Below are positions 255-12,200 of a stretch of DNA of 64,000 nt, piece by piece. Within the stretch, counting starts at the first letter, position 1; every line of letters starts with the position of its first letter. The translations under genes and the position numbers were made by a program. The stretch covers positions 19,462,950 to 19,526,949 of the forward strand of contig NC_134029.1 in NCBI RefSeq assembly GCF_964204645.1, in the 5' to 3' direction. The stretch comes from Tubulanus polymorphus (Eukaryota > Animalia > Nemertea). The notes under the pieces are model-generated. The model was given only the letters and a program-made list of their open reading frames with translations. It was not told the DNA's origin and searched no databases.

Positions 255-3200
255 GTAAGTGAACTTACTCGAATAATGACATTGACAGAGCATTTCTTTA
301 TCAATGCATGATTCAATGAAAAATGAATAAATTGTAACATTTTAAACGTAGAAAATTTCTCTGATTCACTCAGCCAATTTTATGAAATCACTTGGAAAAT
401 TAGAGAAAACTCAGGACCCAGTTCCACAGTTCTGAGTTAGAGTTAAATCTGAGTTAAAACTAGTTCATTTTCAATTAGTAAACTCTGAGTTAAATCTTAA
501 CTCAGAACTGTGGAACTGGCTCCTGGGGATTTGTAAATGGGCGGAAAGTGGCCACCCTGCGCAGCCTCTAAAATCCTTGGAAAGAAAACCATGAAGATTT
601 CTTTGATGAGGTTGCATCGTATAGGCCCATACAGAATTGTACTTTGTTTCTTTTACTTTTAAAGTACGTGTACAACGTACTGAATATTTTGTAAAAACTC
701 GTTATGAATCGTTTCGGTTTTACAGACGGGAGGTATCCATTACTTCTATATCGAAGACTGGCAGTTCGTGAATGAGTTTCGTCACGTAGTCGGCATCCGC
801 AAACTGTTTCCCGACCCGAGCGGAACTCGACTCGTGTTCATCGACGATAAAAGCGATGGTTACGTTTACAATCCGGTAAGTCTGGAACACAGCGGGTAGC
901 AGGTGGTGAAAAATTGGAGAAATGCTCATCAGCGGGTATTGTTACCTGTGTTTTCATGCCTTCCCATTTTTACCGTGGGTGAACTTCGGTTTTCGTAGTT
1001 AGTCGACTAGTAGTCGGAGCTAGTGATCAAATGCACTTAAGTTTTGTCTAACACCATCTTCGAACGAGATATGAACTACAGCGTCTTCACAGTTTCTTAG
1101 TTCGTTATTTTCAGACTATAGTTCCGACTAACTGATATTCGGTTTCATTTAGTTCGCAAATAGTGTACTAACTCCGATAACCGAAGTTCGCCATGGGTGA
1201 ACTTTGGCAATCACCAGTCATCGACTATTAATGGATGAATTGAAAATAAATGTCAGTTAGTCCGAACTATAGTCCCCGAAGGTATCTCTGAAGTTTGCAC
1301 TCTCTGTAGTTTCCACGTAGTCTAAACATGGCAGACACAAAGTCTAGTGCATAAGAAATTGAAGGATAGAGATTCTTATATTCTATTAACTAGAAAAAAC
1401 CAAAGTTCACCTCCGTGCTAAAGAAGGTGTAACCCTTGGGATAGTTTCAGTGCCCAGTCCTCGGTTGATTATTCTCGTGGACGCGATAATTAAACAATTG
1501 AAAATAGATATTTGTAAACGTAATTCGTTTTTCATGAAATATTTTCTTCTGTTCGGTCGATGTAGGTAAACGACCAGATCATAGAAATCCCTAATTTCTC
1601 CTCGACAACGCACGGCGTTCTGTGGGAAAACTGGCTACCGGATAAGGTAAGAATTATCGTCGGGATTTTCGTCGGAGTGTATGTATTTATGTGTATATTG
1701 CGTGAGAGAAATGTCGTCAAATTTCTGAACGAATTGAAAGGATTCCTGTTCGTAATTATTATTTCAGAGGATATTCATATCGTACGACGACGATACGATC
1801 GTCACGTATTTGTTACATAAAGAATCGTATAAGGGTATGATTGAAAGACAATCGAACAGCCTCGATCGAACGTAGACAGCTGACTGACCTAGCACTTGGC
1901 GGCCCGGTTTAACGAAAGAGTTCATATTCAAATTTATCGGAAACTTTGTCTCGAACCCACGTTCGAATAACAGAAAAGTTATTCAAAACATTGATGAGTT
2001 AGAATTTCTTTTGAAAAAAATCTGAATATCCGAACATTAAAAACCATTTTCAAGGAGACACCTTTGGTTTACTTGCTGTGGGTTACTTAGTACAAACTTT
2101 TTTTAAGCGTAGATTTGTTCGTTAAACTATATCCGCCGAGAAACTCTTCAAATCAAGATCTCTCAGCTGTCTAGAGATAATGCTATTAACATTCCTTTTG
2201 TAGTACTTTATAACATTTAGTAAGCTTACAGTCAGTGGATTTATTTTGTCTAATATTTTGTGCCCTAAAAATAGCTTACGTTGTTGAGACCATTCCCGAA
2301 AAATATGGCTGCTAGAGACATAATCGCTAATCCAGTTGACATCGTACTAATTAGTGATTTTACAGAGGGATCATATAGAGGGATACAGCAGGGATTCGAA
2401 CCTGATGGCATCGCTAGACTCGGCCACGGCATATGAAACCCTGCCACAATAGACCGGGTGCGCAAGTTAGCCGCATTAAAACTCGCGACACCAATCAGAT
2501 TGCCCGTGGTATAATTGCCAAGGCATATTTCACGAAAAAACTATAAATGGAAAACCTGGGCTAAAATAAAACAGGATGTCTGATTGGCTGATAATGACAT
2601 CATCTAAGCTGCGCACTCGCGCTAGTGTGGCAGGGTTTGTACCATGGCGCGTCTCAATGCCATGAGGTTCGAGTGCCTGCCGGGCGAGGATGCATATAGA
2701 TAGGGAGCCATGTTTTTCTTGAGGGGTCTGCCCAGACTGGTTCATGCCGTCAGTAAGTAGCTTTATGTACCCAGGTTCCTCAATGTAAGCGCTAACTTTT
2801 TATCTACCGGTACTTGTAGAGATTTAAACATATTTTTCTTTATTTAAATCGACTCATACGATCTAAGAAAGACCCTTCGGCATCGAAACAAAATTTCATA
2901 CCTATTTATCCTACTGTGAAAAAGAAAGCCATATCATGCTGATTTACTCTTATGCCATCAGATGCATTTGACAAGACTTACAAATGCGCCAACCATTCCT
3001 GATTTCTTGGATTAGTTTTCAACTCGTTTCTGAGGTTGATAGTCCTGGATATACCGGTGAGGATACCGCAGGACGGCGATGATAGTATGTTGTCGCCAGA
3101 GCGGCACAACTTCTTATCAGTGCATTAAGTAAAAAAACATGTAGTTCAGTAACGGTTGACGGTTATTATTGTTCCAGATGCTCTTGAAATGCTTTTGAAA

Positions 3201-6200
3201 TTTAAAAATTTACCTTAGTAAGAGGGGCCATTGAGTCGTCTTTTCTTGACTAAGATATCTATTCGACACGCTTTTAAAAATTCTGGTAACATCCTTGATG
3301 AGGGCAAAGTGTTAGTTTGAGTTCTAACACGGCGTGGTGTGAATAATATATACGGTTCGATATTTAACAGCTCTGACACAAGCTTCTGTTCTCTCTCGTT
3401 TCATTATTCTAGGGCGTGTTCGTAGTGTTCAACGACGAAAAGATAACGTCCTACGTATACCTACGGGAAACAGTGTCTGGTATGCCCGAAACTTTCGTAC
3501 ACGTGCAGGCCGCGTATAACCTGCCGCCCTCGGTGGCTCTGGCCAGTTGTAAGTGTGGGAGGCGTATATACACTGTACTGGACACTGGGTTTTCCCGCGA
3601 TTGAGATTCTGCGTTTTTTTTCTGTTTTCGACGCGTTGTGCACACTCTCAAAATTCTAGTTACCTATAGTCGAATTCGACAATATTCTTATAACTTTAGC
3701 GAGATTTTTCATGATATTTTTGTTTTCTGCGTCACTTTTCAGCAGCAGCAGCAGCACAATATTATTTCAGTAGTGTGTTACATCATATATATACCTCCCA
3801 CACTCACACACCTCCACGCTTCCATTCTCATCGGAATGGGAGTTCTAAAACCTTAACTTAAGTTTCTATTCTATATGGTGGCTGATTCGGGCCATACTAA
3901 GAAACATTTTCTGTTCAGCTTGAGGCACGATAAAATAACTTTTACATTGGCCCAATTCTAGAGTTTTGAATTTTTCGTGCGAGAGAATAAAAGACTTTGA
4001 ACTTTTGCGCAAGAAAACCAGATTTTTTTAAAATTCTCAAGCAAAAGCCAAAATGTTTTGTTGAATTCTCGCACGAGAAAACCAAAAAATGGGCCAATGT
4101 GAAAAACTTTTTTTTCATGCCTCAGTTCAGAAAAATGTCTTAAGTATGGCCCAAATCAGCCACCATAATTCTAACTATTTTTCGCCTAATTTTTCATTGC
4201 GTTGTTTGTAGAAATATTTCATAGAATTCGATCATTGCCGTTTAAAAATTTTCTCGAAATCGTTTATTTACGGGTTTATTATGGCCATTTATGATGGAAT
4301 CTTTCCTTATTCGTACATATAGGTTCTAAAGTCGTTCAAGTCGGAAACACGAAACTGCCGTACGGTCATGTACCGATCATGCTGTACAACGGAGAGGTTA
4401 CTCTTCAAACTCAGAGCGGCAAAGTCCAAACTCTGGTCCTTTCAACTCACGATTTCGAAGGGAAGCCTTTGGATCAGTCACCGGCTGAAGTACGTATCGA
4501 ATGAATGTTCGAAGTGTCCTTAGATGAGGCTTCCTTAGTATATTCTATTCATTACTCAGTGATTTATCTGTTGTTTTTTTTTCAGCTCAAAGATGCTCTT
4601 GAAAAGTGTTTAGCTTTAAGAAGGTAATGTCTGATTTTTAAAATGCATATCACGATTGATAAAACACTATTTGTTGAGACGATTATGTAAAGAGAATACC
4701 ACAACAATAACGAAAAAAGTCCGAAAAATGTAACTGGAGCTTTTTAGTAGTTTACTATTTACTATTCTAATAGTCATCTTCAGGAATACTGAATGAATAA
4801 AAATATATAGAATATATTATCAAAATGCTACAATCTTGAAATGTTTGTTGCTGTAGTAATTTTGTTCTGAAAAGCTCCTTAACCCAGTTCCGCAGTTCTG
4901 AGTTAAGATTTGACTCAGAATTAAATCATTGAAAATGAACTGATTTCAACTCAGAGTTAACTCTTTTAACTCGCAACTGTGGAACTGGGTCCATCAGTTC
5001 ACTAAACTATAGGTTTTTGTCTAGATTACTTTTTACTGTTTCGCAGGTTTAAAGATGCGTGGACGTATTGCGACCTGCTTTGTAAGAGGGAGCATTGGCT
5101 CGAGTTGGGAAGAGTCGCTTTAGAGAATTTGGAAATTGACATGGGTACGAAGTGCTTATTTTGCGTGTCAAAATGAAATTTTTGAAAAATACGATCTGCA
5201 AATATTATATCCACGAAAACTTAATCATTTTACAGCGATCAAGGTGTATAGACATATCGCTGATGCCGGAATGGTGATGTCTTTACAAAAAATCAAAGTA
5301 CGTGCTTGAAATGAAACAGTCATAGACAATATAATGTCCTTGTCGAGGTACTCAAGGTATTGATATTCATAATTTGCTTTCTTTATCATTACAGAATACA
5401 GAAGATCGAAATTTGCTAGCCGGCTATATCGCGATGTTCATGGAAGATTTCAGTCTCGCGCAAGATTTGTTTTTGGCCTCGAGTTTCCCGAGCGCGGCAT
5501 TGGAAGTACGTTTCAGCTAGAACTTGATAAAGCCCAGTTCGTAGAAATAATAAGTATATAAGATACCGAGAAATAAGAAAAAAGATTCCCCCAATTTGAA
5601 TTGACTTACCAAAGCTGGTACATGTATATGCCGGTTTATCATTAGATTTGTATCATGTACATTTTCTATATTGGTATATCAGTCCTCTGCTAGTAAAGAC
5701 ATTTCAAGTTATACATCACACATATTTTTTCATCAAAGAGATGTTGTTATCTAGTGAAGAGATCTACCGGTAGTTAGTCGACTAGAATTTACGCTGAAGT
5801 AGGATTTAATTCTAACTCATTTACAATAGATATCACTCAATTCAAACCTTTTTAGGACTGTGATAAGCAATATCCCCGAGTTGGATAGTGTATATTTCAT
5901 ATATTGGTCATATTTTGAAGAATATTTTGAGTTGAAAATTTATCTGAATCTGACTTTGCGGCGGAGTCTACCATATATAGTATTGTTGATAGTATTGTTA
6001 AGCTTAAAAGTGATACGAATTGAACTGTTTACTGTTAAATCTGTTGAATTATATTCTTTCATCAAATTCCAAAGTTGAGATCTGAGTTACGCATTTCTGC
6101 TTACGGTATATTTACATATGTTTACAGTTATGAAAATATTACTCCATTTTTTAGATGCGACGAGATCTGTTGCATTGGGACGAGGCGTTGAAACTGGCTA

Positions 6201-9200: not shown

Positions 9201-12200
9201 TTGATAGGATTTTTAGCAGATCGAGGGAAAACAAAGTGCATGTCGGGGAATAGTCGGGAAAATGCAAGTCAAACAAACATTTTTTACGTTCATTTATATT
9301 GAATTGGACGATGAGTAATATCCAGATAAAATCCGGCTTGATTTTTGGGTCTACTGGATTTTTCCGATCTTCAACCCGATGCCTATTTTTTCCGAAAATT
9401 AATTTTGTATCTTTTTTTCCCATTTTCGTAGGCCCTCAATCATTTCCTGCGAGTGAAAGGCCAAGACGAACACCAGGCTATCGAGATGGCCATCGAAACC
9501 GTCGGCCAGGCGAACGACGATAAACTCACGGAAGTGCTCATCGAATTCCTGATGGGCGAAAACGACAACATTCCGAAAGACGCGAAATATTTGTTCCGTG
9601 TCTATATGGCTTTGAAACAGTATCGAGAAGCCGCCCGTACGGCTATTATCATCGCGCGCGAGGAACAAAACGCCGGTAGGATTTCGATACAAAAAAAAAT
9701 GATTCGAATTTAGTGATAGAAATTTATTTTCATGAAGAAGTTTACATCATTAGACATTGAATAAATGGTAAAAGGAAGAATAATATAACTAGATGATATG
9801 TGGAGAGACTGAATTGGTCGATCTCATCCTCCCCGGCGGGGACTCGAACCTGATGGCATCGCACCTGCTACTGCGCGAAACCCTGCCTCACTAGCCTGAG
9901 TGCCCAGCTACTATAATATCATTGTTAGCCAATCAAAGATCATGTTTTATCTTAGCCCGGGTTATCTCAAGCTATCATTATCCATACCTCAGCGATTGTG
10001 CAACCGGTGATCTGATTGGTGCTGCAAGTTTTCGTGCCGCAAACCTGCGCAAGTATCTGCGCACCCGGTCTAGTGTGGCAGGGGTTCGTGCCTTGGCTGA
10101 GTCGAGTGATGCCATCAGGTTCGAATCCCTGCCGAGGGAGGATTGTCTATCTAAGTTGTGTCGCCCAAATGCATCCACACCACATTCATCACATTCAAAC
10201 AACATGAATCAGTCCGGTAATGAGAAATGATTGTGACTGTATAACTGAAGCTATATTCATCGTTTCACTGGATGTCTTTGAAACTAGGACAAGCGGGTTT
10301 CATTCTATGTAGAATAAAAAGAACCGTTCGCATATTTTGAAAAATTGGATCCGTTTTTCGTTTGTTTAGGTAACTACCGCAATGCTCACGACGTTTTGTT
10401 CAGCATGTACCAAGAACTGAAACAAAATCGAATCAAAATTCCGACGGAGATGTTGACGAATCTGATGATTCTTCACAGCTATATTCTCGTCAAGGTGAGA
10501 ATCGACGATTTCACTCGGCGTCAGTACGTTTCATTCGGGATAAGATTACCTGAACCTTTTTTTTCGGTTTTCGTTAATTACAGATCCACGTGAAACGTGG
10601 CGATCATTTGAAAGGAGCCAGAATGTTGATTCGAGTGGCAAACAATATCAGCAAATTTCCTGCTCGTGAGTTTTAAAAGCTTTCAAGAATTTTCCAATAT
10701 TATTAGTAATTTGTAGTAGTAGTAGTAGTAGGCCTGTACTTGATAGCGTTATGCAATACACGTCTAGAGGCGGTTGATTATGTGGATCAGATTTTGTGAT
10801 TGAGTGTTTGACTAGTTTCAGCAAATGAAATATCGATCTCACGAGAATCATTCAATGATTTGTACCGTATTAGGGTTTGACTGGAATGGCAAAAAGATAT
10901 GAGCACTGACGTGATGAAGACTAGATTATAATTTGATATAGTGAAAAGAAGATAACTTCTTCAACTTAAGATGAAATTCAGTCACCCGTGATCTATTCAT
11001 GACCAGTTTTCTCTATTTAGATGTTTACTACTTGCGCGTGGGCGCTGGCAAATATTATACAGTCAAAGCCACATAATACATCTATGTCTTACAACATCTA
11101 TGTCTTACAGTCAGGGAAAACAATATGCATGTCTAGAAATAGTCAGGGAAAAAGAATGTGAAATAAAAGTGGCCACCCTGATGATATAAGATGTATATAT
11201 GACCTATTACATGTATTGTTATGATCATTATTATTTTTATGGTCTTTCTATGTATTGTATACTCAAAAATGAGGAAAGATTTTGAAAATATTTCAGATAT
11301 CGTACCGATATTGACGTCGACGGTTATCGAATGCCATCGGTCGGGTCTGCGAAATTCGTCGTTCAGCTACGCGGCCATGTTACTGCGTCCCGAGTACAAG
11401 AACCAAATCGATGCTAAGTATAAGAAAAAGATCGAAGCTATCGTTAGGTATGTTTGTGCGTACGCAGTACGAGCGATTACGAATTCTTTTCGGGAAATAC
11501 AGAATCATTCATCTCCGTTTGTTCGATGTTGTAGAAAACCGGATAAAACCGAAGAAGAAGAAGAACTGCTACCTTGTCCCTATTGTAGTTTCGAAATCCC
11601 CGGTACGACCCTCACTTGTCCCGGCTGCAAAAACAATATTCCGTTCTGCGTTGTGACTGTAAGTTGAAGTAGAGATATATTCAATGGCCAACCATTCCCC
11701 CTGGTTTTTATGCTGCTGTATTACGTCCGACGAAATTAACTTTTTTGTTTCATTTCTCAGGGTCGTCATATAACCAAAGATGATCTCACTGCCTGTCCGA
11801 CCTGTGATTTCCCTGCCTTCAGATCTGAATTCATTACGTAAGTACCAGTACATTGCATTGTAAAGATACTCATAGTGGACTCCAGTCTCTGGTCGAGTCG
11901 GAACGACTCGGGTTGCCGTTCAGTAATTCATCGAAATATGAAATATATTTCTTAGTTTATGCAACTCAGATATCACTCAATTTACATTTGATTGGACAAA
12001 ATGGGACCGTCAAAATTAGTCCGAGGTAACCCGAGTCTGAGTTAAGGATAGGGAAATATGTTAAGAAGTCAGAAAAACGGGTATAGGTTAATTTTTTAAT
12101 TTTTGTCTGAGTTGGGCATGTCCTACCTGTATATAGATATTTTGCCAGTAACGGTGTGCACTGGTAGTCGACTGTCGGTTTGTCAACTCTACTAATAATG

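What the first reader, a model, noticed from the sequence alone, without database searches (positions are those of the whole stretch)
1876..3550. Long-range docking/selector RNA duplex that could switch the MXE pair
Seen (hand pairing): 1876-1909 (ACAGCUGACUG..AGC ACU U GGCGGC CC GGUU) pairs with 3518-3550 (AACC U GCCGCC CUC GGUG GCU C UGGCCAGUUGU) for about 26 bp including G-U pairs. In addition, 1912-1918 ACGAAAG pairs with 3492-3498 CUUUCGU. The partners start about 40 nt after donor a and 12 nt after donor b, so pairing loops out exon b and crowds its 5' splice site. The same docking bases can instead form local hairpins (GCCGCC-cuc-GGUGGC 3523-3537; GCAGG/CCUGC 3505-3524), so the two states are mutually exclusive. 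Established: competing pairings of this kind control MXEs in Drosophila Dscam1, 14-3-3zeta and Mhc. The 1.58-kb spacing rules out simple steric exclusion. Function here is inference.
Basis: partly seen in the sequence, partly recalled or inferred. Interest (0 to 1): 0.8.

Follow-up and report, generated by a model that had tools for sequence, protein, structure and literature searches.

The report
Ribbon-worm IFT144 exon pair, RNA stems
A ribbon worm's cilia-transport gene WDR19/IFT144 has two interchangeable exons, but the proposed long-range RNA switch between them pairs barely better than shuffled sequence, its first arm is predicted to be held in a much stronger nearby stem, and its second arm is likely an extra stretch of coding exon, so the pairing is likely a leftover of the exon duplication and not the switch.

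Summary
The window holds WDR19/IFT144 of the ribbon worm Tubulanus. Exons a (1768-1834) and b (3413-3479) are a real 67-nt exclusive pair, also modelled in Lineus. First, the 5' arm D (1873-1918) pairs much better with 2118-2173 (11+8+11 bp; best of 1446 windows); forcing the long-range state costs 21.9 kcal/mol. Second, the 'docking' arm lies in an open 69-nt extension of exon b that ends at a second donor (GTAAGT, 3549). Its peptide is 11 of 22 identical in a Lineus-like relative, and snails and annelids have inserts at the same junction. D looks like a decayed copy of this partly self-complementary extension, so cross-pairing is expected from the duplication. Best reading (0.5): local stem, frame-based exclusion, vestigial long-range match. 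A true three-arm switch remains possible (0.33), because D keeps more pairing than simulated neutral decay. Orthologous introns could not be fetched, so covariation is untested.

The parts
1566..1646 (+). Constitutive exon upstream of the pair (WDR19/IFT144 residues about 543-569)
   Evidence: spliced to a and to b in run X4 contigs
1768..1834 (+). Exon a, 67 nt, second beta-propeller residues 570-592; donor AGG|GTATGA
   Evidence: RefSeq isoform X1 = P0001; joint 1646>1768 in X4; Pfam PF15911 covers 360-634
1835..1915 (+). Flank of exon a: likely decayed copy of exon b's extension (in-frame stops at 1873-1875 and 1885-1887; dead donor homologue CCG|GTTTAA at 1907)
   Evidence: direct similarity to 3486-3554: 2 of 2000 shuffles with chosen ends; 36, 19 and 4 of 1000 with fixed 70/80/100 nt; GC 0.53
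1873..1918 (+).
   Evidence: single-copy depth in run X1
2118..2173 (+). S1, local partner of D: helices 1873-1883/2163-2173, 1895-1902/2133-2140, 1906-1916/2118-2128
   Evidence: -44.6 kcal/mol, pair probability 0.98-1.0; rank 1 of 1446; 0 of 600 shuffles; 4 of 200 regional shuffles
2258..2266 (+). Possible 9-bp partner of exon a's donor (1832-1840), extending the D:S1 stem; weak
   Evidence: p=0.68 in the 1760-2300 fold; present in the 1760-3830 minimum-energy fold
2386..2680 (.). High-copy inverted-repeat (MITE-like) element in the a-b intron
3413..3479 (+). Exon b, 67 nt; proximal donor CTG|GTATGC
   Evidence: RefSeq isoform X2 = P0003; X4 contig joins upstream exon, b and downstream exon
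3480..3548 (+). Open in-frame 69-nt extension of exon b (likely alternative 5' splice-site form, +23 residues)
   Evidence: 11 of 22 residues identical in P0267; 22-27-residue inserts at this junction in Owenia, Capitella, Haliotis, Gigantopelta, Babylonia models; no spliced joint at 3548 listed
3492..3550 (+).
3549..3554 (+). Distal donor GTAAGT, best-scoring GT of the b-to-downstream intron
   Evidence: same place implied by read-through residues S-K-C in P0267
3552..3804 (+). Second local stem H2 (arms 3552-3582 and 3766-3804), predicted to cover +4..+14 of the distal donor; may be an old inverted repeat
   Evidence: stronger on the antisense strand (-49.0 vs -39.7 kcal/mol)
3874..4167 (.). 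High-copy inverted-repeat (MITE-like) element in the downstream intron
4323..4489 (+). Constitutive exon downstream of the pair

Best explanation
Copy b kept the extension and its second donor (3549), which likely gives a short and a long form of b. In copy a the extension decayed into element D. D is predicted to fold, as soon as it is made, with 2118-2173 into a 30-bp stem that would keep it from S2 and may dampen exon a's donor. A second stem (3552-3804) would hide the distal donor of b. One exon per mature mRNA is likely secured by weak competing donors plus frame control: each exon is 67 nt, so both or neither shift the frame, and decay would remove those products. Shown: exon pair, two RNA joints, sequence complementarities, open frame and conservation of the extension peptide. 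Predicted: all folds. Inferred: homology of D to the extension, use of the distal donor in this species, NMD, any effect of the stems on splicing.
For: D:S1 beats D:S2 by 9 kcal/mol as a duplex (10 at 15 C), by 17 after accessibility and by 21.9 in constrained folds of 1760-3830; S1 is made 1.3 kb before S2. D:S2 energy is within or near shuffles and in the chance range of an all-against-all scan. S2's high GC (0.60 against 0.21-0.49 behind the 21 constitutive donors; GC3 0.73) is explained by coding; its GCCGCC box is part of the Pro-Pro codons kept in P0267. The a flank resembles the b extension in direct orientation, and the b homologue of D pairs with S2 as well as D does (-38.6 vs -35.2), so three of four helices are expected from copying a hairpin, as modelled in PMC6071210. 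a+b gives a stop at codon 74 of the four-exon frame test. Donor scores: a 5.9, b 3.8, constitutive 4.4-11.3 (matrix from this gene).
Against: Simulated neutral decay of the b homologue to D's divergence seldom keeps as much pairing with S2: 2 of 684 and 0 of 685 by helix chain, 55 of 684 and 29 of 685 by energy. Nine D bases pair with S2 only, not with S1. The 7-bp helix 1912-1918/3492-3498 is not part of b's own hairpin. S2 ranks 4 of 1437 by the strict score. Homology of D to the extension is only moderate with fixed windows (36 of 1000 at 70 nt; 2.4% of 12753 genomic windows score as high). Predicted donor masking does not discriminate: the used donor of b is also predicted mostly paired. 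No joint at 3548 and no a-to-downstream joint was listed in the contigs. Strong local stems are common here (11 in 64 kb).
Confidence: 0.5

Rival explanations
1. Three-arm competing-pairing switch. D pairs by default with S1 (exon b is used). In a minority of transcripts, or with helicase or protein help, D pairs with S2, loops out exon b, covers its extension and distal donor and brings exon a's donor toward the downstream exon (exon a is used). This keeps the reader's idea, with the shared arm and the competitor reassigned.
For: 24 D bases are shared by both partners, so the states exclude each other; D:S2 has 31 Watson-Crick pairs of 33. Strict score 9 of 2000 shuffles; retention above neutral decay. 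S2 starts 12 nt behind donor b, the place of downstream partners in srp and 14-3-3zeta (PMC4691838, PMC4174434). The b-containing contig is deeper than the a-containing one in X4 (90.9 vs 12.8), as a default D:S1 state would give, though contig depth is a poor measure.
Against: +21.9 kcal/mol and a kinetic handicap; energy not outside shuffles; in srp and ATE1 the exon ratio follows the difference in stem strength (PMC4691838, PMC7797038), which would leave almost no exon a here; at least 5 of 33 paired S2 bases must differ in the relative P0267; the strict score was chosen after the energy tests.
Confidence: 0.33
2. None of the stems matters: D:S1 and H2 are remnants of old fold-back elements, D:S2 is chance between two GC-rich patches, and exon choice rests on splice-site strength, proteins and decay alone.
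For: 11 stems of 28 bp or more within 450 nt occur in 64 kb, 6 with copies elsewhere in the window; neither D:S1 nor D:S2 is stronger on the transcribed strand than on the other (-44.6 vs -47.4; -35.8 vs -37.1), and H2 is clearly weaker; 4 of 200 regional shuffles reach D:S1's 30 bp.
Against: D and S1 have single-copy depth and no copy in the window; three near-perfect helices are separated by unalignable spacers; D resembles the b extension rather than a mobile element; the one variant seen inside a helix (2120 C>T in X2-X4) keeps a G-U pair (one site, weak).
Confidence: 0.17

Closest known systems
Hairpin-duplication model for competing structures at mutually exclusive exons (Ivanov and Pervouchine 2018, PMC6071210; parts 1 and 3 of 5 read)
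   Same: Tandem exon duplication that also copies a flanking stem-loop and so creates cross-complementarity between the copies; neighbouring introns keep traces of similarity.
   Different: The model copies one arm of an intronic stem. Here the copied unit seems to be a whole self-complementary coding extension with a second donor; one copy stays coding, the other decayed and gained a stronger local partner.
Drosophila srp exon 4.1/4.2 downstream pairing (stem II; PMC4691838, abstract and first quarter of Results read) and 14-3-3zeta IE1/IE2/IEa (PMC4174434, passages; Yang et al. 2011 not seen)
   Same: An element behind the first exon can pair with one behind the last exon and would loop the last exon out.
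   Different: Those elements are intronic, conserved and shown by compensatory mutation. Here the downstream arm is likely coding, the shared arm is the upstream one, no upstream stem stands out, and nothing is tested.
Human ATE1 R1/R3/R4 (PMC7797038; abstract, first third of Results and passages read)
   Same: One arm in the internal intron has a local partner in the same intron and a partner across an exon.
   Different: [quoted passage not shown] S1 and S2 are not alignable beyond chance (rank 1013 of 1620), the sites involved are 5' splice sites, and the two states are far apart in predicted energy.
Dscam1 balancer pairings (PMC8791459, passages read)
   Same: A second pairing antagonises a docking-selector pairing.
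   Different: Balancers act in a 48-exon cluster over about 10 kb; here a single 300-nt stem would hold the only candidate selector.
RefSeq WDR19-like isoforms of Tubulanus polymorphus (X1, X2) and Lineus longissimus (X1-X8)
   Same: The a/b pair is already in these gene models.
   Different: The long form of exon b is in neither set; RNA structure is not part of the models.

Membership tests
Tandem-duplicated mutually exclusive exons | Two homologous exons of like length and phase that replace each other | tested here: met
   67 nt each, both in frame; alignment 0 of 1000 shuffles; X1/X2 differ only at residues 570-591; a-a 13 and b-b 14 of 23 identical between Tubulanus and Lineus against 9-11 crosswise
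Tandem-duplicated mutually exclusive exons | Each exon spliced to both neighbours in RNA, never both together | tested here: inconclusive
   X4 contigs show upstream-b-downstream and upstream-a; the a contig runs on unspliced past donor a; no a-downstream or a-b joint listed, but contigs drop rare forms
Docking-site/selector switch (14-3-3zeta, Mhc, srp stem II type) | Internal-intron element complementary to an element behind the last exon, beyond chance | tested here: inconclusive
   33 bp drawn; 160 of 2000, 46 of 600, 8 of 300 shuffles by energy; 9 of 2000 by a post hoc strict score
Docking-site/selector switch (14-3-3zeta, Mhc, srp stem II type) | Two elements compete for one shared site | tested here: met
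   S1 and S2 share 24 bases of D, but the shared site is the upstream arm and one partner loops out no exon
Docking-site/selector switch (14-3-3zeta, Mhc, srp stem II type) | Competing states close enough in stability for both to form | tested here: not met
   +21.9 kcal/mol for the long-range state; 9-10 as bare duplexes; equilibrium prediction without proteins
Docking-site/selector switch (14-3-3zeta, Mhc, srp stem II type) | Arms conserved in relatives with compensatory changes | not testable with these tools
   No genome held; the metagenome scan gave 4 false loci; only the peptide of S2 could be compared: 28 of 33 paired bases can stay, 5 must differ
Docking-site/selector switch (14-3-3zeta, Mhc, srp stem II type) | Disrupting and compensatory mutations change and restore exon choice | not testable with these tools
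   Bench experiment
Bidirectional pairing (srp type) | An upstream stem that loops out the first exon | tested here: not met
   No pair involving intron 1647-1767 scores above 41; the mean best score of shuffles is 48.7
Frame/NMD-guarded exon pair | Double inclusion shifts the frame to a premature stop | tested here: met
   134 nt, stop at codon 74 of 127 in the frame test
Frame/NMD-guarded exon pair | Double-inclusion RNA rises when decay is blocked | not testable with these tools
   Bench experiment
Alternative 5' splice-site extension | In-frame, stop-free stretch ending at a donor, conserved as peptide | tested here: met
   P0267 11 of 22 identical, ungapped, same donor position implied; 1 of 23 donors of this gene has such an in-frame GTRAG 39-102 nt downstream
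Alternative 5' splice-site extension | Spliced junction at the distal donor in this species | tested here: inconclusive
   Not among the joints listed (79 not shown) and no X4 cover beyond exon b; not in RefSeq X1/X2
MITE / fold-back element (for D:S1) | Many genomic copies | tested here: not met
   X1 depth 31.1 over 1400-2311 against thousands over the neighbouring elements, at 85% likeness; older, more decayed families would be missed

The most novel reading that the evidence does not exclude
A three-arm splicing switch born from one duplicated coding extension: the dead copy behind exon a (D) is stored in a local stem, and when released it pairs with the live, protein-coding copy behind exon b, silencing both donors of b at once. 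One RNA element would then choose among three IFT144 propeller forms (a, short b, long b), and the docking site would be coding sequence under double constraint, in a phylum for which my searches found no such switch.
Probability: 0.33. Interest if true: 0.65.

Novelty: new member of a known kind. Interest (0 to 1): 0.42.

Why it matters
As it most likely stands, this is a worked case of how exon duplication leaves cross-complementary flanks that look like docking/selector pairs, and a warning that such pairs need a check for local competitors and for coding. It also shows unreported variation in a core cilia-transport protein: a two-exon swap in the second propeller in ribbon worms, and an optional loop of 22-27 residues at one junction across annelids, snails and ribbon worms. 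If the switch reading is true, it would be a clean natural test of the hairpin-duplication model, with a docking site that is also coding sequence, and covariation would be easy to read because the relative's peptide forces at least 5 of 33 paired bases to differ.

Tried and rejected
No whole genome is held, so copy number came from contig depth only. The metagenome scan with the downstream exon gave 4 loci of 253 pattern hits; all 4 were chance matches to a short motif in GC-rich DNA, so no orthologous intron was obtained. Run search: no RNA holder listed by record; X4 is taken as RNA only because its contigs skip GT-AG introns. The raised depth of 1577-2372 in X2 and X3 and the unspliced run-on behind exon a in X4 could be retained intron, an early end or pre-mRNA; background unspliced depth in X4 is 6-9, so I draw nothing from it. 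Variants among X1-X4: none listed in D or S2 (23 rows not shown; complete for 1480-2370). Rfam: two sub-threshold matches, both in the downstream repeat. My first all-against-all script chained without bound and is void; one search crashed and was redone. One search's frame test used a wrong border for exon a; one search corrects it. Homology of the two local stems (D:S1 and H2) was tested and not found: loops 149 of 300, 3' arms 747 of 1000. S1 and S2 are not similar as sequences. A Tubulanus match to the 6-residue Lineus insert was sought among 13 AG-18nt-GT candidates; none resembles it. Exon a pairing with 3349-3369 near b's branch region is not in the top 40. Tandem repeats: none in 1566-4489. 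P0268 is an unrelated repeat protein. No protein fold was run.
Full report
Setting. The downstream exon matches human WDR19 and is 100% identical to an NCBI protein named WDR19-like isoform X1 of Tubulanus polymorphus. The gene runs on the + strand to about 12330. The borders are: upstream exon 1566-1646, a 1768-1834, b 3413-3479, downstream exon 4323-4489. Both exons are 67 nt and encode residues 570-592, inside the second beta-propeller (PF15911, 360-634).

The exon pair is real. The two Tubulanus models differ only at residues 570-591. Lineus longissimus has both types (6 a-type and 2 b-type of 8 named models); a-a and b-b identities are 13 and 14 of 23, crosswise 9 and 11. Lineus is a heteronemertean (PMC8593623, search listing only); that Tubulanus is a palaeonemertean, and that the split is old, is recalled. 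Among 250 of 266 stored proteins that could be placed (16 short or unaligned ones dropped), I saw by eye no other species with two divergent versions; only 20 clusters were opened, each listing at most 15 members, so this is not proof of absence. Run X4 has contigs joining upstream-b-downstream (depth 90.9) and upstream-a (12.8); the a contig continues unspliced past donor a. Both exons together give a stop at codon 74 of the frame test.

It can be drawn as described: 26 bp at -29.0 kcal/mol, 33 bp with the extra helix, 2 of them G-U. Its support depends on the measure. Across 1446 windows it is 9th raw and 150th after its own folding is paid for. By a strict helix-chain score, devised afterwards, it is reached by 9 of 2000 shuffles and ranks 4 of 1437. 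Without conditioning on the arm it ties 14th-20th in the region, and each shuffle yields about 10 such pairs. It is suggestive at best.

First thing missed: a stronger partner. D (1873-1918) pairs with 2118-2173 (S1) in helices of 11, 8 and 11 bp at -44.6 kcal/mol, with pair probabilities of 0.98-1.0. S1 is first of 1446 windows by both measures, beyond all 600 shuffles, and reached by 4 of 200 regional shuffles when counting long helices (4 of 40 by the chain score). D and S1 have single-copy depth. Against a role: 11 stems of this size lie in the 64 kb and the stem is no stronger on the transcribed strand. The fold may extend over exon a's donor (p=0.68), but b's used donor is also predicted mostly paired, so this is weak.

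Second thing missed: S2 is likely coding. 3480-3548 is an open, in-frame 69-nt stretch ending at GTAAGT. It is the best-scoring GT of that intron and the only such case among 23 donors of the gene. A search of 1.84 billion representatives with exon b plus this stretch gave 2 hits; one, P0267, is an unnamed read-through of a b-type exon (20 of 23 identical to Lineus b) followed by an ungapped extension with 11 of 22 identical residues and residues that imply the same donor. Models of Owenia (23 residues), Capitella (23), Haliotis (24), Gigantopelta (22) and Babylonia (27) carry inserts at the same junction, all starting Gly then Thr, Met or Asn, as read-through of a GTA donor would give. Their sequences are mostly not alignable to the Tubulanus one (14, 17, 70, 108 and 164 of 500 shuffles). 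No joint at 3548 was listed in this species. A second stem, 3552-3582 with 3766-3804, would cover +4 to +14 of this donor, but it is stronger on the antisense strand and may be an old inverted repeat.

Why D matches S2. The flank of a resembles the extension of b in direct orientation: 2, 5 and 2 of 2000 shuffles with chosen ends, 36, 19 and 4 of 1000 with fixed lengths. These two flanks have the highest GC of the 23. The a copy has two stops and a dead donor. The extension is partly self-complementary, and b's own homologue of D pairs with S2 at -38.6 kcal/mol. Three of the four main helices therefore map onto b's own hairpin, which is the outcome that PMC6071210 models for duplicated stem-loops. 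The opposing result: copies decayed at random to D's divergence seldom keep as much pairing (2 of 684 and 0 of 685 by chain score; 55 of 684 and 29 of 685 by energy), nine D bases pair only with S2, and the 7-bp helix is not in b's hairpin. That simulation takes today's b as the ancestor and ignores that S1 may have frozen D, so it does not decide the matter.

Mechanism. Most likely (0.5): D is held by S1, the long-range duplex seldom forms, and exclusion comes from weak competing donors plus frame control; the stems at most tune donor use. Next (0.33): a three-arm switch in which release of D from S1 lets it loop out b and cover b's second donor. Last (0.17): no stem matters. All folds are predictions; no step about splicing control is shown.

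Comparison. The geometry of D:S2 is that of srp stem II (PMC4691838, abstract and first quarter of Results) and of 14-3-3zeta IE1/IEa (PMC4174434, passages). A local competitor in the same intron recalls ATE1 (PMC7797038, abstract, first third of Results, passages) and Dscam1 balancers (PMC8791459, passages). It works like them only if the rival holds.

Novelty. The a/b pair is already in RefSeq models. Searches of the held library found no paper on it: WDR19 with mutually exclusive exon gave 2 unrelated titles, nemertea with the same phrase gave 0, and the listed rows held nothing on IFT144 isoforms (listings only; 20 of 289, 10 of 36, 12 of 36 shown). I read no supplements; genome-wide exon catalogues could list the gene. 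The long form of exon b in ribbon worms and the D:S1 stem appear in no record I saw. Earlier scan notes held nothing on this locus.

Verdict. Observation partly confirmed, interpretation partly supported. Interest 0.42; new member of a known kind.

Noticed in passing
window 3480-3554: Unannotated long form of exon b (+23 residues) from a second donor, conserved as peptide in a Lineus-like relative (P0267) and as a same-site insert in annelid and snail WDR19 models.
   Followed up: yes
P0004, P0006, P0008, P0009 (Lineus longissimus models): A 6-residue insert follows exon a in 4 of 6 a-type models and in neither b-type model; its first residue rules out simple donor read-through, so it is likely an 18-nt micro-exon. 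No match found in this window.
   Followed up: partly
window 1768-2434: In run X4 the contig spliced into exon a runs on unspliced through the D:S1 stem into the repeat; an in-frame stop lies at 1873-1875 and AATAAA at 2565. It may be a slow intron or an early end that would drop the TPR half of IFT144.
   Followed up: partly
window 2120: C>T variant in X2-X4 falls in the inner D:S1 helix and keeps a G-U pair (-42.5 vs -44.6 kcal/mol).
   Followed up: yes
window 2386-2680, 3874-4167, from about 4670, 9825-10143: High-copy inverted-repeat elements; 9825-10143 is a copy of the 2386-2680 family (73% identity). X4 shows a different allele at 2381-2434.
   Followed up: partly
window 2287-2310 and 2706-2729: An imperfect inverted pair (79%) flanks the repeat in the a-b intron, perhaps an older element into which it inserted.
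   Followed up: no
P0240 (Gigantopelta), P0074 (Amia), P0043 (Nucella): Other, unrelated inserts at the same junction; some may be modelling errors, but the site seems to tolerate loops.
   Followed up: no
P0002 and related Lineus models: Six of 8 named Lineus models carry a long extra N-terminus and 4 carry a 22-residue insert near residue 33 that Tubulanus X1/X2 lack.
   Followed up: no
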